A stretch of 64,000 bases of DNA from Bryobacterales bacterium (GTDB lineage Bacteria; Acidobacteriota; Terriglobia; Bryobacterales; UBA6623). The notes beneath the pieces were generated by a model, which saw nothing but the letters and a program-made list of their open reading frames with translations, was not told where the DNA came from and ran no database searches. The stretch covers positions 1,233,375-1,297,374 of the forward strand of contig CBDCOA010000003.1 in assembly GCA_965219585.1 (NCBI GenBank), written 5' to 3'. The stretch's first letter is position 1; every line of letters starts with the position of its first letter. The position numbers and the translations under genes are program-made. This document shows, in pieces, positions 15,190 to 57,327 of this stretch.

Positions 15190-17021
15190 CTAGACTCCTT
15201 GTCTAGGCGTAGCGTTTACAGATGAGTCAAGTTTACGCGGCGATCGGCTGGCCCTCCCAGAGTCGGTCGATCTCGCGATCGAAGCGCTGTACGGCCTTCT
15301 GCAGGGGCGTGGGGTCGGAACCGCCGGCATCGAAGACCACCGACAGAGACGGGCGCAGCACGCGGGCGTAGGTGCGCTGGAAGCACAGCGCCGTGCGCAG
15401 GCCCTGCTCGGTCACACGGTAGCGGCGCGTGCGCGGGATGCGCTCGATCAGGCCCCGCAAGCGCAGTCGCCGCAGGTCGTAGGTCATGCGGCCTGCGCCC
15501 CACGCCTCCGCGCTACTGCCCAGCAGGGGCGCGACCCGCTCGCGCAACTGCCGGTGGGTGAAACCGTGCGGCAGCAGCCGGAAGCTCGCTAGGGACGCCA
15601 GCAGGGCCTGCACGCGGCGGTCCCCGAAGCGTAGCGACGCTGCCCGCTGCCCCTCGATCTGGGCCGCCGCTTGGAGTCGCTCGAAGCGCTCGGCTCCCAG
15701 CGTGCAGTCGTGGCTGAGGCGTTCGACGCACAGCAGGCGTCGGTTGGCTTGGAAGCCGATCTTTTTCAGATGCTCGAGGTTGCCCAGCCGACGCCCGACT
15801 CCGAAGTCGTAGCTGTCGTTGATCGTGGTCTCGGTGCGCAGCGCGCGCCCTTCTTTGAAATATTGCTTGATGCGGGTGCTCTTGTAGTCGAAATGCAGCG
15901 AGGGGTCCACCCCGGCGGTGATCACGCGCGTGCGGAAGCGTGACGGCGTGCGCTTGCTAACCCGGCGCTGGAACACCAGCTGGACGTGGTCGGGCCGGCC
16001 GATGTCGAGGTTCTCGCGGATGACCTCCTCGAAGAACATGCGCCCCTGCTGCGGGCGGTCGAAGACCTGCGTGAGCGAAAACTCCGCCTGCAGGATGGAG
16101 AGTTGGTAGCGCAGCCCCGCGGCGCGGTCTGCGGCCGTGAACGGATGCGGCAGCCGCGCCAGCCACTTGCGCGCCAAGGCGTCGATCTTGGCGGCGCTGA
16201 GCTGGCGGCAGATCTGTGCCAGCCGCTCGGGATCCTCGCAACTCAGGATGCCGTTGTCGAGCGCTTCGAAGGCAATGCCCTGCTTGGCCAGCTGGCGCTT
16301 GACGTACTCGTGACCGTTAATGCAAACCTTGGCGCCGTACGGGAAATACGAGCAGAATTTGAGGAAGAAGGGGCCGAAGTCGTCATCGACGGCGTAGAAA
16401 TAGTAGGCGTTGGGCAGGGCTGTGGAGAAGGCCAGCTCGGGCGAGCGGCGGCCGGTGGCGGGATCGGTCTCGGCCTGGGTGCGCAGCACGCGCGCCTTCT
16501 CCTGCGCCTTGCCGATGTACAGCACGCCCTCGCCGCCGCGCCACTGCCGCAGGTAGGCCTGGGTGCGCTCGTCCTTGCGCTCGCCTCTCTCGAAGCGGAT
16601 CAAGTCGATGTTGCCCTCGCGGGCGAAGGCCTCGATGGCGGCCACGAAGCTGCGCGTCATCGGGGCCATCAGGGCCGGGGAGGGCACCGGGCAGCCGCGC
16701 ACTTGGCGGAAGAACCAGGCCGCCCCGCCCGGGGTCTGCAGCAGCGGCTGGTAGAGATTGAGGTAGAGCCGGTCGACGCACTCGACCTCCAGGGTGACAT
16801 GCTCGGAGATGGCTTCGGCGACGTTGCGTGCTACAGTCATGGCGCGGGTTCGGGGCGATGGGCTCCCCACACAACCGTCATGATACGGACACTGTCGCCT
16901 AGGCGACCATACGGCGGCCCCGGCCGCAGAGCGGAGCAGCGTCCGGAGCCCGCACTCCATCGCGAGTATGACCACGCAGCTTCGAACCGAGTCTCGTCGG
17001 TCTGAGGCTCAGCCTCGCTAG
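15190..17021 (-). mobile_element. copy 1 of an unclassified 1,832-bp single-ORF repeated element (IS-like)
   Basis: Collinear with 53553-55384. The flanks are unrelated. The element is bounded by CTAG at both ends, and one ORF fills about 88% of it. Confidence 0.65.
15233..16840 (-). CDS. 535-aa protein of the repeated element (putative transposase, family not recognised)
   Basis: I took the start at ATG 16840 (MTVARNVAEAI...). There are 17 substitutions and no indels against the second copy. The C-terminal segment MTYDLRRLRLRGLIERIP.TRRYRVTEQG looks like a winged helix. Possible acidic triad candidates are YAVDDD, EALDNG and ALRTET (speculative). Confidence 0.6.
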   Translation of the reverse strand: MTVARNVAEAISEHVTLEVECVDRLYLNLYQPLLQTPGGAAWFFRQVRGCPVPSPALMAPMTRSFVAAIEAFAREGNIDLIRFERGERKDERTQAYLRQWRGGEGVLYIGKAQEKARVLRTQAETDPATGRRSPELAFSTALPNAYYFYAVDDDFGPFFLKFCSYFPYGAKVCINGHEYVKRQLAKQGIAFEALDNGILSCEDPERLAQICRQLSAAKIDALARKWLARLPHPFTAADRAAGLRYQLSILQAEFSLTQVFDRPQQGRMFFEEVIRENLDIGRPDHVQLVFQRRVSKRTPSRFRTRVITAGVDPSLHFDYKSTRIKQYFKEGRALRTETTINDSYDFGVGRRLGNLEHLKKIGFQANRRLLCVERLSHDCTLGAERFERLQAAAQIEGQRAASLRFGDRRVQALLASLASFRLLPHGFTHRQLRERVAPLLGSSAEAWGAGRMTYDLRRLRLRGLIERIPRTRRYRVTEQGLRTALCFQRTYARVLRPSLSVVFDAGGSDPTPLQKAVQRFDREIDRLWEGQPIAA

Positions 17022-17060: not shown

Positions 17061-19023
17061 TAACCCGAAGTTCCGGGCCAGAAGCGAAGGGAACTCCTTG
17101 TAATGCATTGCCTTATCGGGATTTGGAGTTGTCCTGCACTGGGAACGTTCGGACCAGTTCAAGCGCACGCTTCTGCAAAGCGCTCGGTTCCGTCAGCCGC
17201 TCCACGGTGGGCCCGTTGGCGTCGTCCTGCAGGCGGCATTGATGGCGACAGCGCGTGCCCAGCACCTGCAATAACGTCGAGAAGCTGTGCAGTTCCAAGC
17301 CCTGCGCCGTCTTGCGACGGTTCTTTTTCGCTTGCACTTCCTGGCGCGGCTTCGCCGCCGCGACCGGATCCCGCCGCGCCTGCCAGCCCGCCAAGTCCTC
17401 GTCTTCGAACAGCAGCTCGGCCAAGGCTTGCCGCAGGTGCCACTCCACGTAGTACGCCAGCAGGCACAGCAGCAGGTGGGCCCGCACGCGCTGCTCGCTG
17501 CGATGGCGGATCGGGCGCACCTGCAAGTCCACGGTCTTGAGGCAGCGGAAGGCGCTCTCGACGCGCGTTAGCTGCTTGTAGCTGCGCACCACATCTTCCG
17601 CTGCCAGATCGCTCTGGCTGGCACGGATCACGTACAGGCCGTCCAAGGCCGCCTCGCGCTCGATCGAGTGCGCGTCCCGGCAGAACTGCAAGCTGCCGTC
17701 TGCGATCTGGGTCTGGAAGTGCTTGGCGACCTTGGAACGCTGCTTGGCGCGCCCCACCTTCTCGGCGATGGCGGCCTCCAGCAGCGGCTTCTTGGTGCGC
17801 CGCGCCACTTCGCGCTGGATGCGCGCCAGGTCTTGCTCGGCGGCCTCCAGCAGCGCTTCGCGCTTGTGCCGGCGGCGCTCGGCCAAGGCCGGGTTGCAGC
17901 ACACGATGAGGCGCTCGTCGGGGTACAGCGGGGAGTGGATCTCGGCTAGGTTGCGCTCGTCGAAGAGCGACATCTGGACGCTGCCTTGCTCGGCCAGGCG
18001 GCGGATGTCGTGGTGGCGCAGGGCCGAGATCCAGCCCAGGCCGGGGTAGTCGCGCAGGGTCTGGATCTGGGTGTCGGTGAGCATGCCGCGGTCGCCCACC
18101 AGCACCAGCCGCTGGAGGCCGAAATGCTGGCGCAGGGCCTGGACCTGGTCCGGCACCGTGGCCGGATCGGCGGTGTTGCCGGGATAGGCCCGCACGGCCA
18201 GCGGGCGACCCTGCCGGTCGGCCAGCACGCCGTAGACCACGATCGGTCGGCCGCGCTTGCCGTCGCGGCTGTAGCCGTAGCGCATCAAGGGGCAGCTGTG
18301 GCCTTCGTAGTAGCTGCTGGAGACGTCGTACAGCACCTGGGCATCGTCTTGCAGGTGGCGCTTGGCGAGGCGTTGCTCGATGCGGTCCTGGCGCTGCAGC
18401 AGCCAATCCATGGCCTGGTAGAGGGCGTCTTCGTCGGCGTCCTGCAAGTCGAGTTCCTCGGCCAGAGTGGTGGCGTGCCAGAGGCGGGTGGTGGCGAGCT
18501 TGGAGGCCGGGTGGAGCAGGCGCTGGGCAATCATGGCCAGCACGGCGGAGCGCTGGGGGGAGGAAGCACGATCGAGCAATTTGGGCAGGCCGAGGCGGCG
18601 GCAGGCCTCCAGCACGAGTTCGACATGGCCGTGGGGGCGGGAGCTGACGATGGTGAAGGCTTGGTCGAGGCTGACGAGGGGCTGGTTCTTGAGCAGCTTG
18701 CGGAGGGCGTTGATCTTGGCGGGGGGCCAGCTGGAGAGATTGGCAAGGGTGCGCTTACGGACCTTAGAGCCTTCGCGCCAGCCTTCGCGGAGGAGGATGG
18801 CTGGGGGTGAGGAGCGGTTGGGGACGACTTCCACATACATGGGAATACTATATCACAGATTACGGCATAAAATCAAGCAATAAAAACATCAAACAATCAC
18901 CACAAAAGTCCATTACATGGGAACAATAGACACTCCGCAAGCGCTTGGAAAGCAATCTAGGCCCTTTGGAATCAACGAGTTAGCGCGAGATCAAGCGACA
19001 AAATCGCCCGGAACTTCGGTCTA
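17061..19023 (-). mobile_element. IS1634-family insertion sequence, apparently complete (about 1.96 kb)
   Basis: 18-nt imperfect terminal inverted repeats: TAACCCGAAGTTCCGGGC at 17061-17078, and 19006-19023 whose reverse complement is TAGACCGAAGTTCCGGGC (16/18). They flank an intact transposase ORF and a low-GC 5' leader. Confidence 0.8.
17113..18840 (-). CDS. IS1634-family (IS4 superfamily) transposase
   Basis: 575 aa. The N-terminus MYVEVVPNRSSPPAILLREGWREGSKVRKRTLANLS is the characteristic IS1634-type opening. DDE region includes VLVGDRGM. Confidence 0.85.
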   Translation of the reverse strand: MYVEVVPNRSSPPAILLREGWREGSKVRKRTLANLSSWPPAKINALRKLLKNQPLVSLDQAFTIVSSRPHGHVELVLEACRRLGLPKLLDRASSPQRSAVLAMIAQRLLHPASKLATTRLWHATTLAEELDLQDADEDALYQAMDWLLQRQDRIEQRLAKRHLQDDAQVLYDVSSSYYEGHSCPLMRYGYSRDGKRGRPIVVYGVLADRQGRPLAVRAYPGNTADPATVPDQVQALRQHFGLQRLVLVGDRGMLTDTQIQTLRDYPGLGWISALRHHDIRRLAEQGSVQMSLFDERNLAEIHSPLYPDERLIVCCNPALAERRRHKREALLEAAEQDLARIQREVARRTKKPLLEAAIAEKVGRAKQRSKVAKHFQTQIADGSLQFCRDAHSIEREAALDGLYVIRASQSDLAAEDVVRSYKQLTRVESAFRCLKTVDLQVRPIRHRSEQRVRAHLLLCLLAYYVEWHLRQALAELLFEDEDLAGWQARRDPVAAAKPRQEVQAKKNRRKTAQGLELHSFSTLLQVLGTRCRHQCRLQDDANGPTVERLTEPSALQKRALELVRTFPVQDNSKSR

Positions 19024-51823: not shown

Positions 51824-52540
51824 CGCCGTGAAGAGTAGCAGTTTTGACCGGCCAGCGTCAGTTGCCGAACGGCGGGAACTGGGCCGAGAAGCACTCGGCT
51901 TGGTGAGACCGGACGGTACGAACATCCTCCGCCTGATCGGAACGAAAAGCGAGCGAACATAATCTTGGGTCGAGCACTTGGTGTCTAACAGCCTCGCCGG
52001 CCTAAAGGAGTTCGCGGGGCGTTAGGCGGAGTGTCAGAACGAGTCCTGGCTTCCAACGGCCTCGGCACCAAGGAGTCCTGCGTCCGAAATACTCGAGGAC
52101 TCTGGCTGCAACGATTTTCTCGTTGGCGTTAGCGGGTGCAAGCATGCGCGGTATTCTTTCATCAGGACAAGGTTCCGAGGTCTATACGGGGCAGGTCCCG
52201 CACGGGTAGGATGGCATTCGTCCAATCGCGCGGTTCCTGCCCCATTTCAATCTGAGCGCCATCTCGACCCGCAGCGTTGCGCATCACAGCCGAAATCGAA
52301 CGTTCGGCAGTTCCCTGAAGTCGTAAGCAGTGCAGATCTCACGCCGGCGGACGAGAAATCCCACGCACTAGATCGTTGTCTCGGCGCAAGCTTGACGATT
52401 GAGGCGAGTTTGATCGTGGGGGGCGATTCTCTGCCGGCTTGACGCTCCGCCTCAGCCGCCTGCGCCGAGGGAACGGAACCTAGCCAGCGGGCCCGCACCG
52501 ACTGCTCCCCGGGCACAATTCCGCCTGCTATCATGCAGCC

Positions 52541-53296
52541 ATGGCTGCTCCCGGCGCACTCTTGGATGCCCGCGCCGACCCGGCTGCGGGACAACCGGTG
52601 GAGTACCCCTTCTCCGACGGCAAGGTCCTGATGGAGACGGATCCGCATGCGCGGTCGATCGTCGCCATACGCGACCAGCTGGATACGCATTTCAAGGCTA
52701 GGCAAGACGCCTACGTGGCAGGCAGCATGGCGGTGTACTACCAACAAGGCGACCCCGCGGCCGTGGTGGTGCCAGACGTGTTCGTGGTGCTGGGCGCTGC
52801 GCACAAGCAGGCGCGCAAGTCGTATCTGCTCTGGGAGGAGGGCGGCGTGGTGCCGAGCTTCGTGGTGGAGGTGGCGTCGCCCTCCACGAGCCGTCGCGAC
52901 GCGACGAGCAAGCGCGCGACGTACGAGCGGATGGGGGTGCTCGAATACTGGCGCTTCGACCCGCTGGGCGAGCTGATTGCGGGGCGGCTGGAGGGCTGGC
53001 GGCTGGCGGGTGGCCGCTACGAGCGGGTGCGGGCTGTGCGAGCGGCTGGCTGGCACCGCAGCGAGGCGCTGGGACTGGAGTTGCGGGCGGAGCGGTGGCT
53101 GCTGCGCTTCCACGATCCACGGCTGGGCCGGGACATGCTGACTCACGCGGAAACCAGCGATGCCCTGCAAGCAACCGCGAGCCAGCGCGACGAGGCGATC
53201 AGCGAACGCGACGAAGCAGTGCGGGAACGCGACGAAGCGAATCAAAGGATCCGCGAATTGGAAGCGCGCCTGCGGTTGTCGGACAAGTCCGCCTAG
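52541..53296 (+). CDS. Uma2-family (DUF820) PD-(D/E)XK endonuclease-like protein with C-terminal coiled coil
   Basis: Motifs PDVFVV...., PSFVVEVASPST...D...K...Y...GV.EYW..DP. C-terminal repeats QRDEAISERDEAVRERDEANQRIRELEARL. Confidence 0.8.
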   Translation: MAAPGALLDARADPAAGQPVEYPFSDGKVLMETDPHARSIVAIRDQLDTHFKARQDAYVAGSMAVYYQQGDPAAVVVPDVFVVLGAAHKQARKSYLLWEEGGVVPSFVVEVASPSTSRRDATSKRATYERMGVLEYWRFDPLGELIAGRLEGWRLAGGRYERVRAVRAAGWHRSEALGLELRAERWLLRFHDPRLGRDMLTHAETSDALQATASQRDEAISERDEAVRERDEANQRIRELEARLRLSDKSA

Positions 53297-53552
53297 GATT
53301 CCAGAGTTCGGAGCGGTTTCCGGCCAACCGCGAACACAATACCGCGCAGGACTTGCCAGTCCCAACTGCGGATACGATTCCTGTTCAGAGGGCGACGGTT
53401 TCAAGCGACGCTTCACAGCAGTGGTTCGGTCTGTGGCTACGGAGGCCGCCACTCAAGAGACCCCTGTCGCCTGTACGGCCCACAAACGAATGACGCTTGG
53501 AAGCCCGCTGGTTCCCGCTCGCGCGCCTTCGCGGGCCTGAGGCTCGGCCTCC

Positions 53553-55384
53553 CTAGATTCCTTGTCTAAGCGTAGCGTTTACGGATGAGTCAAGTTCACG
53601 CGGCGATCGGCTGGCCCTCCCAGAGGCGGTCGATCTCGCGGTCGAAGCGCTGCACGGCCTTCTGCAGGGGCGTGGGGTCGGAAGCGCCGGTGTCGAACAC
53701 CACCGACAGGGACGGGCGCAGCACGCGGGCGTAGGTGCGCTGGAAGCACAGCGCTGTGCGCAGGCCCTGCTCGGTCACGCGGTAGCGGCGCGTGTGGGGG
53801 ATGCGTTCGATCAGCCCGCGCAAGCGCAGACGCCGCAGGTCGTAGGTCATGCGACCCGCTCCCCACGCCTCCGCGCTGCTGCCCAGCAGGGGCGCGACCC
53901 GCTCGCGCAACTGCCGGTGGGTGAAACCGTGCGGCAGCAGCCGGAAGGCCGCCAAGGACGCCAGCAGGGCCTGCACGCGGCGGTCCCCGAAGCGCAGCGA
54001 CGCTGCCCGCTGCCCCGCGATCCGTGCCGCCGCTTGGAGTTGCTCGAAGCGCTCGGCTCCCAGCGTGCAGTCGTGGCTGAGGCGTTCGACGCACAGCAGG
54101 CGTCGGTTGGCTTGGAAGCCGATCTTTTGCAGACTCTCGAGGTTGCCCAGCCGACGCCCGACTCCGAAGTCGTAGCTGTCGTTGATCGTGGTTTCGGTGC
54201 GCAGCGCGCGCCCCTCTTTGAAGTATTGCTTGATGCGGGTCTTCTTGTAGTCGAAGTGCAGCGATGGATCCACCCCGGCGGTGATCACGCGCGTGCGGAA
54301 GCGTGACGGCGTGCGCTTGCTGACCCGGCGCTGGAACACCAGCTGGACATGGTCGGGCCGGCCGATGTCAAGGTTCTCGCGGATGACCTGCTCGAAGAAC
54401 ATGCGCCCCTGCTGCGGCCGGTCGAAGACCTGCGTGAGCGAGAACTCCGCCTGCAGGATGGAGAGTTGGTAGCGCAGCCCCGCGGCGCGGTCTGCGGCCG
54501 TGAACGGATGCGGCAGCCGCGCCAGCCACTTGCGTGCCAAGGCGTCGATCTTGGCGGCGCTGAGCTGGCGGCAGATCTGCGCCAGCCGCTGCGGGTCGTC
54601 GCAGCTGAGGATGCCGTTGTCGAGCGCTTCGAAGGCAATGCCCTGCTTGGCCAGCTGGCGCTTGACGTACTCGTGGCCGTTGATGCAGAGCTTGGCGTTG
54701 TACGGGAAATAGGAGCAGAACTTGAGGAAGAAGGGGCCGAAGTCGTCATCGACGGCGTAGAAGTAGTAGGCGTTGGGCAGGGCCGTGGAGAAGGCCAGCT
54801 CGGGCGAGCGGCGGCCCGTGGCCGGATCGGTCTCGGCCTGGGTGCGCAGCACGCGCGCCTTCTCCTGCGCCTTGCCGATGTACAGCACGCCCTCGCCGCC
54901 GCGCCATTGCCGCAGGTAGGCCTGGGTGCGCTCGTCCTTGCGCTCGCCTCTCTCGAAGCGGATCAAGTCGATGTTGCCCTCGCGGGCGAAGGCCTCGATG
55001 GCGGCTACGAAGCTGCGCGTCATCGGGGCCATCAGGGCCGGGGAGGGCACCGGGCAGCCGCGCACTTGGCGGAAGAACCAGGCCGCCCCGCCCGGGGTCT
55101 GCAGCAGCGGCTGGTAGACATTGAGGTAGAGGCGGTCGCAGCATTCGACCTCCAGGGTGACGTGTTCGGAGATGGCTTCGGCGACGTTGCGTGCTACAGT
55201 CATGGCGCGGGTTCGGGGCGATGGGCTCCCCACAGAACCGTCATGATACGGGCACTGTCGCCTAGGCGACCATACGGCGGCTCCGGCCGCAGAGCGGAGC
55301 AGCGTCCGGAACCCGCACTCCATCCCGAGTATGACCACGCAGCTTCGAACCGAGTCTCGTCGGTCTGAGGCTCAGCCTCGCTAG
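53553..55384 (-). mobile_element. copy 2 of the unclassified 1,832-bp single-ORF repeated element
   Basis: Same length and orientation as copy 1 and bounded CTAG...CTAG. Its 20-nt left flank resembles its own right end at 18/20 positions. Confidence 0.65.
53596..55203 (-). CDS. 535-aa protein of the repeated element (putative transposase, family not recognised)
   Basis: Intact ORF that differs from the copy-1 protein by 17 substitutions and no indels (counted by eye). Confidence 0.6.
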   Translation of the reverse strand: MTVARNVAEAISEHVTLEVECCDRLYLNVYQPLLQTPGGAAWFFRQVRGCPVPSPALMAPMTRSFVAAIEAFAREGNIDLIRFERGERKDERTQAYLRQWRGGEGVLYIGKAQEKARVLRTQAETDPATGRRSPELAFSTALPNAYYFYAVDDDFGPFFLKFCSYFPYNAKLCINGHEYVKRQLAKQGIAFEALDNGILSCDDPQRLAQICRQLSAAKIDALARKWLARLPHPFTAADRAAGLRYQLSILQAEFSLTQVFDRPQQGRMFFEQVIRENLDIGRPDHVQLVFQRRVSKRTPSRFRTRVITAGVDPSLHFDYKKTRIKQYFKEGRALRTETTINDSYDFGVGRRLGNLESLQKIGFQANRRLLCVERLSHDCTLGAERFEQLQAAARIAGQRAASLRFGDRRVQALLASLAAFRLLPHGFTHRQLRERVAPLLGSSAEAWGAGRMTYDLRRLRLRGLIERIPHTRRYRVTEQGLRTALCFQRTYARVLRPSLSVVFDTGASDPTPLQKAVQRFDREIDRLWEGQPIAA

Positions 55385-55470
55385 ATATGAGATGCCTCAC
55401 TAAGGTCTCGGCCCATGACACCACTAGATATGAGATGCCTCACTAAGGTCTCGGCCCATGACACCACTAG
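55385..55470 (+). repeat. perfect tandem duplication, 2 x 43 bp
   Basis: atatgagatgcctcactaaggtctcggcccatgacaccactag occurs twice, starting at the first base after the right CTAG of copy 2. Each unit itself ends in CTAG. Confidence 0.9.
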
Positions 55471-55971: not shown

Positions 55972-57327
55972 TCACGCGGCGGCCTGTAGCCGTGACTCGG
56001 TTCGCCAGGCCCAGAAATCCTCGTAGCGCCCGCCCAAGATGCAGGCGCGCAGGGCGAGGATCCCCTCGGCACCATCCTTGGTCCAGTACATGCCGGACTG
56101 CTTGAGGCGGCCCACGACGCTCTTGCAGCCCGCCTCGACCACGCCGGAGCCGATCTGCAAGCCTTGGGCGCGGAACTCGGCGTAGCGCATGCGTGCGCGG
56201 TTGGTGGTGATGTATGGCACGGCCTTGGCGGCTGGCTCGCAGTGGCCGGCATGCGCGCGCAGGGTCGCCAGCACACTGTCCAGAGCCCCGGCCTTGAGTT
56301 CCTCGCAGCGCGCTTCGGCCCAGACCTCGGCGCTATCCCGGTCGGCGGGGAAGAGGGCCCGGGCGACTTCCCACATCCTTTCCGAGACGTGGAAGAAGTC
56401 CACGATCTGAATCGCGCCGGGGAACATCTCCGTGGCCGCGGCCCAGATCCATTTCGCGCCGTCGCCGAGGATGACCCGGCGTGGTGCCTGCGGGAAGCCG
56501 CGCCGCTCGGCCTCGCGGCGCAGGCGTTGGGTGAAGGCGGCCGGGGCCGGATCGGTGTCGCGCGCGGCAGCGCTGTCAATCGCCGCCGAATAGGTGACCG
56601 AGCCCTCGTCGCAGACCGGCCGTCCGTCTTGGTCGAACTGATCTGCGGTCCAGATCACGACCAGCTTCGCCTCGCGCGTGGAGGCCGAGCCGTCGGGCTG
56701 CTTGCCGGGCCGGCCGACCAGCTCCGCCGGGCGCATCGGCACGCCGGTGCCGTCCACGCCCAGATACATGGTGGCAGCGGCGGGGGGTTCGGCGGCAAAC
56801 ACCGCCGCCCGCTCGGCGGCGGCCACCTCGCGCCCCAGCGCCTCGGCGACGCGCTCGACACGCTTGGCATTGACGCGCACGGCGGCCAACTCGTCCAGCA
56901 AGTCGCTGGCGGTCGCGAAGCTGGCCACTGCGGCAGCCGAGCCGGTCATGCGGGTGACGGCCGGGGACAGGCTGGTGGCGGCCATGCCCAGCGCTTGGTC
57001 GCGCGGGAACCAGCCCCGCCCGCAGGGACGGCAATGGTAGTAGGCGCGCTCGATGGTGACTGGCCCCAGAGCGGTCTCGAAGGTCTTGCGATGGCGGCCG
57101 GCGAAGCGCGCCGGGTGCCCGCAGGAGCAGGGCTGGGTGGGGGACTGGCCGTCGCAGTGGTCGGCGTTCAGACGCCGCTCGACCGCCCGTGCGGCCAACT
57201 GCAGGGCGCTGCGCCGCACACAGGTCTCGACCGCCTCGAAGTCGAGTTGGTCGACGGCCCCGGGCGCTACGAGGCGGGCGATCTCGGCTTCCAGTGCGGG
57301 GGCGAACTCGTGCTGGCAGGCTTTTTT
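55972..57327 (-). CDS. ISKra4-family transposase, catalytic part (orfB frame, reached by -1 frameshift)
   Basis: Blocks ...HCRPCG.G..P.D, YLGVDGTGVPM, ILGDGAKWIW, QIVDFFHVSE and GLQIGSGVVEAGCKSVVG.RLKQSGMYW are typical of ISKra4/ISLre2-like transposases. This frame opens exactly after a TAA at 57330-57328, i.e. at the slippery run. Confidence 0.75.
   Translation of the reverse strand, partial: KKACQHEFAPALEAEIARLVAPGAVDQLDFEAVETCVRRSALQLAARAVERRLNADHCDGQSPTQPCSCGHPARFAGRHRKTFETALGPVTIERAYYHCRPCGRGWFPRDQALGMAATSLSPAVTRMTGSAAAVASFATASDLLDELAAVRVNAKRVERVAEALGREVAAAERAAVFAAEPPAAATMYLGVDGTGVPMRPAELVGRPGKQPDGSASTREAKLVVIWTADQFDQDGRPVCDEGSVTYSAAIDSAAARDTDPAPAAFTQRLRREAERRGFPQAPRRVILGDGAKWIWAAATEMFPGAIQIVDFFHVSERMWEVARALFPADRDSAEVWAEARCEELKAGALDSVLATLRAHAGHCEPAAKAVPYITTNRARMRYAEFRAQGLQIGSGVVEAGCKSVVGRLKQSGMYWTKDGAEGILALRACILGGRYEDFWAWRTESRLQAAA

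What the first reader, a model, noticed from the sequence alone, without database searches (positions are those of the whole stretch)
53537..55384. Left flank of copy 2 mimics the element's own right end (18/20 nt, both hairpin-forming)
- The 20 nt ending at the left CTAG of copy 2 are ctgaggctcGgcctcCctag (53537-53556).
- They match the last 20 nt of the element, ctgaggctcAgcctcGctag (55365-55384), at 18/20 positions.
- Both can form a GAGGC...GCCTC hairpin.
- The similarity does not continue further upstream, so it is not simply a truncated older copy.
- Copy 1 lacks such a left flank (gcccaacttaccccaactag); only CTAG is shared.
- An end resembling the target is the pattern seen with elements that choose targets by similarity to their own end (for example IS110/IS1111-type elements or site-specific integrative elements). 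It is not the pattern of classical cut-and-paste DDE elements.
Basis: seen in the sequence. Interest (0 to 1): 0.6.

Follow-up and report, generated by a model that had tools for sequence, protein, structure and literature searches.

The report
Unannotated mobile element inserted beside a relative's end
The flank that copies the element's end is the leftover start of a related mobile element, and copy 2 landed head-to-tail against it. The element belongs to a very large, unannotated family whose single protein looks like a rolling-circle replication nuclease, not like any known transposase.

Summary
The 18/20 match sits at the stated coordinates, in register with the shared CTAG, and chance expects 0.01 such matches per window.

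The flank is not a general target rule.
- A 100%-identical third copy, copy 1 and three close relatives all lack it.
- At 52 ordinary insertion sites the flanks resemble the element's ends no more than control CTAG sites do.

The flank is the conserved 5' core (CTAG, a 5-bp hairpin, then CAG-RCC) of another family member already at this locus. Head-to-tail junctions recur:
- 4 of about 67 genomic sites have one.
- A junction pattern matched 112 metagenome stretches, about 69 with a true right end.
- No inverted junction was found.
- Tandem neighbours usually share only the first 23-29 nt.

The element is 1.8 kb, has no inverted repeats, inserts at a single CTAG and has miniature derivatives. 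Its 535-aa protein has no Pfam, NCBIfam, PHROG, PADLOC or PDB sequence match, despite more than 15,000 protein clusters.

A confident model (pLDDT 87) matches best the Rep_trans rolling-circle initiator RepSTK1. Invariant D23, E253, Y327 and R335-x-E337 lie on the equivalent strands, and a MarR-like winged helix follows.

Likely mechanism (inferred): tyrosine nicking and joining at CTA|R. This makes every resident end a ready target.

The parts
53553..55384 (-). Copy 2 of the 1.8-kb element, including the CTAG at each boundary. The ORF is on the minus strand. 'LE' is the end upstream of the ORF (window right side). 'RE' is the end downstream of the ORF (window left side).
   Evidence: It is 95% identical to copy 1 over 1832 nt. 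It is 100% identical over 1818 nt to a third copy, L081, in a different context.
15190..17021 (-). Copy 1 of the element. Its ORF is 15233-16840 (-).
   Evidence: Its flanks are unrelated to those of copy 2 apart from the CTAG.
53596..55203 (-). The only gene of the element. It encodes a 535-aa protein: a predicted Rep_trans-like (TBP-fold) tyrosine endonuclease domain at about residues 10-345, then a MarR-like winged helix at about residues 400-500.
   Evidence: - No Pfam, NCBIfam, PHROG, PADLOC or PDB sequence hit.
- More than 15,000 50%-identity clusters.
- AF2 model with pLDDT 87.
- Foldseek top hit is 4cij_D, E 6.3e-4, probability 1.00.
- D23, E253, Y327 and R335 are invariant, and E337 is at least 90% conserved.
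55356..55384 (-). LE core of copy 2: CTA-G-C, hairpin GAGGC-TGA-GCCTC, then AGACCGACGAG. It is the conserved 5' module and the proposed nick site CTA|R.
   Evidence: The first 29 nt are conserved across the family. The hairpin covaries. Miniature derivatives keep only this module plus the RE.
53553..53597 (-). RE of copy 2: TTGACTCA box, 29 nt with a small hairpin, then CTAG.
   Evidence: The architecture TTGACTCA-N29-CTAG is conserved in about 70 loci. The RE profile scores E 7e-6 here.
53534..53556 (-). LE' (the finding). This is a solo LE core of another family member, CTAG-G-GAGGC-CGA-GCCTC-AG-GCC. It shares its CTAG with the RE of copy 2.
   Evidence: - 18/20 identity.
- Third-best LE-profile hit in the window.
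- Absent from the identical copy L081.
- The same arrangement occurs in L003, L001/L002 and L037.
53290..53552 (.). Spacer between the stop of the Uma2 gene (TAG inside the CTAG at 53293-53296) and LE'. It holds no coding remnant of the element. It holds a second, weak LE-like fragment (AGCCACAGACCGA).
55381..55466 (.). Perfect 43-bp tandem duplication. Each unit is bounded by CTAG, and the second unit abuts the LE boundary of copy 2.
   Evidence: The unit is not RE-like (p = 0.38). It may be an aberrant exchange between two CTAG sites (inference).
55204..55355 (-). Structured 5' untranslated region. A long-range helix (55303-55314 pairing with 55209-55220) covers the ribosome-binding site, and inner hairpins are present.
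   Evidence: RNAalifold finds 11 of 20 pairs with compensatory changes. There is no Rfam match.

Best explanation
The 20-nt flank is the 5' end core (LE core) of another member of the same element family that was already present at this locus. Copy 2 then inserted head-to-tail exactly at that core's boundary CTAG.

The family behaves as follows:
- It is a 1.8-kb IS-like element with no inverted repeats.
- It inserts at a single CTAG.
- After insertion the left junction reads CTA+R, where R is the element's own first base. The right junction reads CTA+G, where G comes from the target.

Its one protein is most likely a Rep_trans-type (TBP-fold, non-HUH) tyrosine endonuclease fused to a winged helix.

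Inferred mechanism:
1. The winged helix binds the LE hairpin.
2. Tyr327, with D23, E253 and E337 holding a metal ion, nicks one strand at CTA|R.
3. The strand is released at the RE's CTA|G.
4. The strand is joined into a target CTA|G.

Each resident end carries this nick site, and an LE core also carries the binding hairpin. Resident ends and solo LE cores are therefore preferred landing sites, and head-to-tail arrays build up.

Shown: the boundaries, the CTAG target, the tandem recurrence and polarity, the absence of the flank at other copies, and the fold and motif match.

Inferred: the chemistry, which strand is active, and that LE' was bound by the enzyme.
For: LE' belongs to the locus, not to the element:
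- L081 is 100% identical to copy 2, but its RE flank is taagccccgag.
- Copy 1 and the close relatives L194, L196 and L197 lack LE'.

LE' is family-like:
- 18/20 identity, with the hairpin retained.
- The LE-profile alignment covers model positions 6-28.

Head-to-tail junctions recur:
- W2, L003, L001/L002 and L037 among about 67 genomic sites.
- The junction pattern matched 112 metagenome stretches, about 69 distinct junctions with a true RE box.
- Tandem neighbours share only 23-29 nt of LE.
- No head-to-head or tail-to-tail junctions were found.

The target is one CTAG:
- The right tetranucleotide is CTAG in 67/67 sites. The left is CTAA in 42 and CTAG in 22.
- Joining the flanks with 4 nt restores long ORFs.
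- A reconstructed TonB receptor aligns without gaps to a homologue across the junction.
- The 4th base at tandem junctions follows the downstream LE. It is CTAA in 6 of 69 junctions, against 0 of 67 for RE next to ordinary DNA.

Protein:
- Model pLDDT 87.
- Best PDB match is the Rep_trans initiator 4cij_D, E 6.3e-4, probability 1.00.
- The Rep_trans motifs N'-D, III YxK and IV hRxE map to D23, Y327-x-K329 and L334-R335-x-E337 on topologically equivalent strands.
- The same catalytic-domain-plus-MarR-wHTH architecture, with a hairpin origin, is described for Rep-Arvir (PMC13107129).
Against: - The Rep_trans link is structural only. hhalign against the RepC family is not significant, no Pfam hit appears even at E = 10, and the TM-score is low (0.21/0.36).
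- Motifs I and II map only loosely.
- No empty-site allele of the copy 2 locus was found, so it is not directly shown that LE' was there first.
- No RE partner for LE' could be recognised, so its origin (solo end, decayed miniature element or stub) is unresolved.
- No circularly permuted contigs were seen.
- No orientation bias relative to local GC skew was seen (21 vs 25). This gives no independent support for a single-strand intermediate.
Confidence: 0.65

Rival explanations
1. Termination overshoot. The stub was made in the same event as copy 2. Rolling-circle synthesis ran past the RE-LE junction of a circular or tandem template and copied about 20-23 nt of LE before stopping. The stub would then be part of the transposed segment.
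For: - L003 carries a 23-nt stub identical to its own LE directly after its RE.
- The stubs of W2 and L003 both end at about nt 23.
- In pT181, replication runs 10-12 nt past the nick to rebuild the hairpin (PMC4797284).
Against: - The W2 stub has 2 mismatches in 20 nt, while the element itself is 100% identical to L081 over 1818 nt.
- L081, copy 1 and L194, L196 and L197 carry no stub.
- Heterologous tandem neighbours also share only 23-29 nt.
Confidence: 0.12
2. Double-strand circle with conservative site-specific exchange. The element excises as a double-strand circle with an RE-CTA-LE junction and recombines with CTAG through a 2-3-bp core, as serine, tyrosine or IS110-type recombinases do. 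The tandem copies would still come from use of the boundary CTAG.
For: The junction logic fits equally well: a shared CTA core, one CTAG in the empty site, and a 4th base supplied by the downstream LE. There is also no strand bias relative to GC skew.
Against: - No serine, tyrosine or DEDD recombinase domain is present.
- The best fold match is a nicking RCR initiator.
- A palindromic core would allow both orientations at resident ends, yet inverted junctions number 0.
Confidence: 0.13
3. General target mimicry. The element routinely chooses targets that resemble its own end, in the manner of IS110/IS1111 and perhaps guided by RNA from the structured 5' region.
For: W2 and L003 have LE-like right flanks. 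The 5' UTR is structured and covaries.
Against: - 52 ordinary sites show no excess similarity.
- The logos show only CTAG plus an A-rich -5/-4 on the left.
- No DEDD transposase is present.
- The conserved long-range helix of the UTR covers the ribosome-binding site, which points to translational control rather than guiding (inference).
Confidence: 0.05
4. Chance, or a common REP-like genomic hairpin that happens to lie next to the insertion.
For: The hairpin is short and GC-rich, and the genome is 65% GC.
Against: - Expected matches are 0.01 per window, against 3 observed, all at element boundaries.
- The profile scan finds no further copies in 64 kb.
- The match is in exact register with one of the window's 103 CTAG sites.
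Confidence: 0.03

Closest known systems
Rep_trans rolling-circle initiators and MOBT relaxases (pT181 RepC/RepD, RepSTK1 PDB 4CIJ, Tn916 Orf20, ICEBs1 NicK; Pfam PF02486)
   Same: - Best structural match.
- The N-terminal strand is central to a two-module curved sheet.
- An invariant Tyr lies in a [RK]-x-Y-x-K strand, followed by an h-R-x-E strand.
- There are acidic residues on separate strands.
- The substrate is a hairpin next to a nick site.
   Different: - No sequence-level match.
- Motifs I and II are not clearly present.
- The protein is 535 aa.
- It sits in a multicopy chromosomal element with defined ends, a CTAG target and miniature derivatives, not in a plasmid, phage or ICE.
- From my own knowledge, and from what reviews of the family list, Rep_trans enzymes are not known as IS transposases.
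Rep-Arvir family (DUF7845) of archaeal viruses and plasmids (PMC13107129)
   Same: A TBP-fold catalytic domain related to Rep_trans only by structure, fused to a MarR-like winged helix, with a DNA hairpin as the cis site. Its essential residues are an N-terminal acidic residue, a Tyr and a downstream Glu (E25/Y283/E303). Here the corresponding residues are D23/Y327/E337.
   Different: Rep-Arvir is an archaeal replication initiator of viruses and plasmids. This family is bacterial and behaves as an insertion element. No DUF7845 hit was found in Pfam.
IS91 / ISCR / Helitron rolling-circle transposons
   Same: - No inverted repeats and no true target duplication.
- A tetranucleotide-defined insertion site.
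- A hairpin about 10-13 nt before a 3' CTAG-type end.
- Head-to-tail arrays.
- Occasional co-mobilised flank (L008/L009).
   Different: Those elements use HUH Y2 enzymes (Helitrons add a helicase). No HUH or Y2_Tnp signature is present here. The target here is CTAG.
IS200/IS605 single-strand 'peel and paste' elements
   Same: - Asymmetric ends with hairpins.
- No duplication.
- The cleavage site on the left flank equals the target.
- Miniature hairpin-bearing derivatives exist.
   Different: - Those elements use a Y1 HUH TnpA of about 150 aa, which is absent here.
- Their hairpins are subterminal with guide sequences, whereas here the hairpin starts 2 nt from the junction.
- No strand or replication bias was detected here.
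IS110/IS1111
   Same: No terminal inverted repeats, a short shared core at both junctions, and occasional insertion into other elements' ends.
   Different: The DEDD transposase and bridge RNA are absent. Ordinary targets do not resemble the ends.
IS630 and IS5 groups (CTAG or YTAR targets)
   Same: Preference for CTAG.
   Different: Those are DDE elements with inverted repeats and a true TA or 4-bp duplication. Here the left copy is CTAA in 64% of sites, so it is not a duplication.

Membership tests
IS110/IS1111 | DEDD (RuvC-like) transposase with a Transposase_20 domain | tested here: not met
   Pfam and NCBIfam give no hit for the 535-aa protein. The same libraries do detect IS110 proteins in neighbouring loci.
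IS110/IS1111 | The target resembles the element end or junction beyond a short core | tested here: not met
   At 52 sites the right flank matches the element's own LE at 4.62/16 positions, against 4.53/16 at controls (p = 0.19). The left flank shows no excess similarity to the RE.
IS200/IS605 | Y1 HUH TnpA (PF01797) | tested here: not met
   No hit.
IS200/IS605 | Insertion without duplication next to a short specific sequence, with hairpin-bearing asymmetric ends | tested here: met
   The empty site holds one CTAG. The junction tetranucleotides differ, CTAA on the left and CTAG on the right. The LE hairpin covaries.
IS91/ISCR/Helitron | HUH Y2 rolling-circle transposase | tested here: not met
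   No Y2_Tnp, Zn_Tnp_IS91 or Helitron Rep hit. Foldseek finds no HUH fold.
IS91/ISCR/Helitron | No inverted repeats, no target duplication, tetranucleotide target, head-to-tail multimers | tested here: met
Rep_trans superfamily (PF02486) | Crescent TBP-like beta-sheet made of two 5-strand modules, with the N-terminal strand at the centre | tested here: inconclusive
   The Foldseek top hit is 4cij_D (E 6.3e-4, probability 1.00), but the TM-score is 0.21/0.36. The strand order in the model is compatible. No residue-level superposition was available.
Rep_trans superfamily (PF02486) | Motifs N' (D), I (RxD), II (T/SxY/ExG), III (YxKxxE), IV (W/LxRxE) | tested here: inconclusive
   D23, Y327-x-K329 and L334-R335-x-E337 are present, invariant or nearly so, and lie on the expected strands. 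Motif I is QxE (Q251, E253), and motif II is only loosely present.
Rep_trans superfamily (PF02486) | Sequence match to the family profile | tested here: not met
   hmmscan at E up to 10 finds none. hhalign against the RepC family gives probability 0.08.
Rep_trans superfamily (PF02486) | Tyrosine forms a covalent 5'-phosphotyrosine link at a nick, dependent on a metal ion | not testable with these tools
   This needs biochemistry.
Rep-Arvir (DUF7845) | TBP-fold catalytic domain fused to a MarR-like wHTH, with a hairpin cis element | tested here: inconclusive
   The architecture agrees. MarR-family chains hit the C-terminal part with probability 0.9-0.95, and the LE hairpin is present. No DUF7845 sequence hit was found.
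IS5 / IS630 (DDE, CTAG targets) | DDE transposase, terminal inverted repeats, true TA or 4-bp duplication | tested here: not met
   No DDE domain. The ends are unrelated to each other. The left tetranucleotide is CTAA in 42 of 66 sites, whereas the right is always CTAG.

The most novel reading that the evidence does not exclude
This is an undescribed, very widespread bacterial insertion-sequence family, found in Acidobacteriota, Proteobacteria, Actinomycetota, Chloroflexota, Planctomycetota and others. Its transposase would be a Rep_trans/TBP-fold tyrosine endonuclease, which would make it a transposase class distinct from DDE, HUH, serine, tyrosine, DEDD and Cas1 enzymes. Its own 5' end would act as a portable nick site that attracts further copies. 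That would explain the head-to-tail arrays of full and miniature elements and flanks such as the one in this window.
Probability: 0.5. Interest if true: 0.9.

Novelty: new variant of a known kind. Interest (0 to 1): 0.72.

Why it matters
If this reading is right, thousands of genes now labelled 'hypothetical protein' are transposases of an unrecognised insertion-sequence family. They occur in soil and marine bacteria and also in cultured Burkholderia, Rhodococcus and Mycobacterium.

Consequences:
- Current IS annotation tools miss this family, so mobile DNA is under-counted.
- It breaks short-read assemblies: many contigs are exactly one element long.
- It would extend the Rep_trans/TBP-fold nucleases, known from plasmid and phage replication and from conjugative transfer, to transposition. 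This would parallel what HUH enzymes did with IS91, IS200 and Helitrons.
- The short cis requirements (a 23-nt 5' core and about 45 nt at the 3' end) and the 4-bp target make the system directly testable. It may also be useful as a small DNA-insertion tool.

Tried and rejected
- The 43-bp tandem unit as a decayed RE or miniature element: local alignment to the RE is no better than shuffles (p = 0.38), and it is worse than shuffles against all family REs.
- An RE partner for LE': the only weak RE-profile hit (52373-52411, E 0.88) lies inside the Uma2 gene. GGAATCCTAG at 53293-53302 resembles an RE tip but has no RE-profile support.
- A decayed full copy in the 264-nt spacer: no protein remnant and only short word matches.
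- Flank similarity to miniature-element interiors: none.
- Circular or permuted contigs as evidence for circles: none. Several pattern hits were simply left flanks that look like AAGGNNY.
- Replication-strand bias from flank GC skew: none, 21 vs 25.
- Rfam: only a spurious sub-threshold hit.
- A guide-RNA idea for the 5' UTR: the conserved long-range helix covers the ribosome-binding site. I did not test for guide-like loops.
- First structure model from a shallow alignment (pLDDT 70): no useful fold match.
- Sequence or profile links to RepC: not significant.
- Empty-site search through the neighbouring Uma2 protein: not on record.
- Literature searches for a described family with these features: none found.
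Full report
**1. Observation**

- The 20-mer CTGAGGCTCAGCCTCGCTAG is exact at the right ends of both copies (17002-17021 and 55365-55384).
- It recurs with two mismatches at 53537-53556.
- No other match at up to 3 mismatches exists in 64 kb, and shuffles expect 0.01.
- The look-alike shares its CTAG (53553-53556) with the end of copy 2, so it is in exact register.
- Copy 1 has an unrelated flank.
- The hairpin is possible but weak, about -4 kcal/mol and no better than shuffles.

**2. The element**

- Copies 1 (15190-17021) and 2 (53553-55384) are 95% identical over 1832 nt.
- Each carries one ORF on the minus strand, encoding 535 aa.
- I describe the element in ORF orientation. LE is the end upstream of the ORF (window right side). 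RE is the end downstream of it (window left side).
- A third copy, L081, is 100% identical to copy 2 over 1818 nt and lies in a different context. An IS110-family element is inserted in its RE.

**3. The protein family is very large and unannotated**

- More than 8000 hits were found, all 'hypothetical' where a source gives a name.
- There are 15,284 cluster representatives at E <= 1e-3.
- Pfam, NCBIfam, PHROG and PADLOC give no family match, and there is no PDB sequence match. The only hits are weak winged-helix hints near residues 430-490.
- Many contigs are about 1.8 kb, as expected when a repeat breaks an assembly.
- Homologues sit on plasmids or chromids of Burkholderia, Caballeronia, Paraburkholderia, Rhodococcus and Mycobacterium, again labelled 'hypothetical protein'.

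**4. Ends**

- Multicopy genomes define the boundaries.
- LE reads CTA(A/G)-C-GAGGC-NNN-GCCTC-AG-ACCGACGAG. It lies 140-190 nt upstream of the ATG.
- RE reads TTGACTCA-N29-CTAG, with a variable small hairpin and a CAAGGNNY tip.
- The two ends are unrelated to each other, so there are no inverted repeats.
- The LE hairpin covaries, GAGGC/GCCTC changing to GGGGC/GCCCC.
- Miniature derivatives of about 100-520 nt keep only about 23-29 nt of LE plus the RE.

**5. Target**

- Among unique sites, the right tetranucleotide is CTAG in 67/67. The left one is CTAA in 42 and CTAG in 22.
- The left flank is A-rich at -5 and -4. The right flank is nearly random.
- Joining the flanks with 4 nt restores long ORFs: 4 sites have at least 199 codons on each side, against 0 sites when 0 or 3 nt are used.
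- A reconstructed TonB-dependent receptor from L064 aligns without gaps to a 55%-identical homologue across the junction. The empty site therefore holds one CTAG.
- The left 4th base is constant within a lineage, with one exception in seven copies of one group.
- At tandem junctions the 4th base follows the downstream LE. CTAA occurs in 6 of 69 junctions, against 0 of 67 for RE next to ordinary DNA. That base therefore belongs to the element.
- All of this fits cleavage and joining at CTA|R. The left CTA comes from the target and R is the element's first base. The right CTA is the element's 3' end and G comes from the target.
- Because CTAG is a palindrome, the same logic works on the opposite strand. 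The active strand is therefore unknown.

**6. Is flank mimicry the rule?**

No.
- At 52 ordinary sites the right flank matches the element's own LE at 4.62/16 positions, against 4.53/16 at control CTAG sites (p = 0.19).
- The left flank shows no excess similarity to the RE.
- The identical copy L081 has the RE flank taagccccgag.
- Copy 1 and the close relatives L194, L196 and L197 have unrelated flanks.
- LE' therefore belongs to the copy 2 locus, not to the element.

**7. Head-to-tail junctions do recur**

- In 80 genomic loci, extra LE cores occur only on the same strand and in contact with an element:
  - L003 has its RE followed by a 23-nt LE stub.
  - L001/L002 have a 97-nt miniature element abutting a full copy.
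  - L037 has a 116-nt miniature element abutting a full copy.
  - W2 is the case in this window.
- A pattern spanning the RE tip, CTAR and the LE core matched 112 metagenome stretches. Of about 98 distinct junction sequences, 69 have a true RE box upstream. They include arrays of miniature elements.
- Tandem neighbours typically share 23 or 29 nt of LE and then diverge. The early end of similarity at W2 is therefore what a heterologous family member looks like.
- Head-to-head and tail-to-tail junctions number zero in 426 kb of unbiased loci, and zero in the metagenome loci. This holds even though the core is palindromic.
- The window has 103 CTAG sites, and only this one carries a solo LE core. 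Landing there is not a random choice of CTAG.

**8. The protein**

- A model built on a diverse alignment (24 sequences, 26-59% identity) reaches pLDDT 87.2 and pTM 0.75.
- Its best PDB match is 4cij_D, the rolling-circle initiator RepSTK1 of the Rep_trans family (E 6.3e-4, probability 1.00, TM 0.21/0.36).
- TBP chains and MarR-family regulators also appear in the hit list.
- The literature describes Rep_trans as follows (PMC4797284; PMC5714925):
  - a curved sheet of two five-strand modules with the N-terminal strand at its centre;
  - a catalytic Tyr on a strand;
  - motifs N' (D), I (RxD), II (T/SxY/ExG), III (YxKxxE) and IV (W/LxRxE).
- In this protein the candidate equivalents map as follows:
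  - D23 lies on the long N-terminal strand (15-30).
  - Q251-x-E253 lie on the second long strand (246-260).
  - K325-x-Y327-x-K329 lie on strand 322-329.
  - L334-R335-x-E337 lie on strand 333-340.
- D23, E253, K325, Y327 and R335 are invariant, and E337 is at least 90% conserved.
- RepC of pT181 reads RIYNKKQE...LWRVEIE at the corresponding motifs.
- The recently described archaeal Rep-Arvir family has the same architecture: a TBP-fold nuclease plus a MarR-like winged helix, with a hairpin origin and essential residues E25/Y283/E303 (PMC13107129).
- Sequence-level tests are negative. Homology therefore rests on the predicted fold plus the motif mapping.

**9. Mechanism (inferred)**

1. The winged helix binds the LE hairpin.
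2. Tyr327 nicks at CTA|R and becomes linked to the element's 5' end.
3. The strand is released at the RE's CTA|G, probably while the donor is re-copied.
4. The strand is joined into a target CTA|G.

Every resident boundary is such a site, and an LE core also recruits the enzyme. New copies therefore stack head-to-tail. LE' at 53534-53556 is such a core, left by an earlier relative as a solo end or as a decayed miniature element. No RE partner or coding remnant could be found.

**10. Rivals**

- A termination-overshoot stub is attractive for L003, where the stub is 23/23 identical. It fits W2 poorly: the stub has 2 mismatches in 20 nt while the element has 0 in 1818 nt, and the identical copy has no stub.
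- A double-strand circle with a conservative core exchange fits the junction logic. It does not fit the fold match or the strict polarity.
- General target mimicry and chance are both contradicted.

**11. Novelty**

- Functionally the element resembles IS91, Helitron and IS200-type nick-and-join elements.
- It fails their defining enzyme tests, and it also fails the IS110 and DDE tests.
- I found no description of an insertion sequence with a Rep_trans-like enzyme, but the literature search was limited.

**12. Still open**

- Which strand is active.
- Whether the intermediate is single-stranded.
- Where LE' came from.
- What made the 43-bp CTAG-bounded duplication.

Noticed in passing
window 55381-55466: A perfect 43-bp tandem duplication. 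Each unit is bounded by CTAG, and the second unit abuts the LE boundary of copy 2. It may result from an aberrant exchange between two CTAG sites made by the element's enzyme. The unit is not similar to the RE.
   Followed up: partly
L008 1312-1320 and L009 1312-1320: Two copies in one Ca. Multivorans genome share 9 extra nt (TAGCTATAG) to the left of the usual LE start. This looks as if an upstream (C/T)TAG served as a surrogate boundary and a short flank was co-mobilised.
   Followed up: partly
window 55204-55355 (alignment A2, columns 79-90 and 195-207): The 5' untranslated region forms a covarying long-range helix (GGCTCCGG pairing with CCGGAGCC) that covers the ribosome-binding site, plus inner hairpins. 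This is probably translational control. There is no Rfam family for it.
   Followed up: partly
L081 4638-6419: An IS110-family element is inserted inside the RE of an otherwise identical third copy, at CGCTTA|GACAAGG. L197 also has an IS110-type gene close to its RE.
   Followed up: partly
window 17113-18840 (-) and 55972-57219 (-): Other insertion sequences lie next to both copies: an IS1634-family transposase beside copy 1, and a UPF0236/ISLre2-like ORF about 600 bp from copy 2. Both copies therefore sit in IS-rich spots.
   Followed up: partly
window 53426-53438: A second, weak LE-like fragment (AGCCACAGACCGA against LE AGCCTCAGACCGA) lies 118 nt beyond LE' on the same strand. It may be another eroded end, but it is statistically marginal (E = 1.4).
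   Followed up: partly
L131 10035-10185; L149 69-597; L087, L115, L125, L150: Arrays of two to four miniature elements of about 100-170 nt, joined head-to-tail through single CTAGs. Some have CAAGAC-type internal microsatellites.
   Followed up: partly
L057, L059, L060, L063, L068, L070 position 3155; L040, L041 position 3152; L042 position 3153: In one subfamily the base after the right CTAG is C in nearly all copies (CTAGC). This suggests either a 5-nt target preference or a slightly shifted boundary in that lineage.
   Followed up: no
CP003090.1 1530942-1532552 (L198) and other hits: Family members with typical ends occur in cultured strains: Burkholderia sp. YI23, Caballeronia sp. SBC2, Rhodococcus koreensis and R. 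opacus, and Mycobacterium riyadhense. All are annotated 'hypothetical protein'. A 22%-identical relative in Paraburkholderia is annotated as an ArsR regulator.
   Followed up: partly
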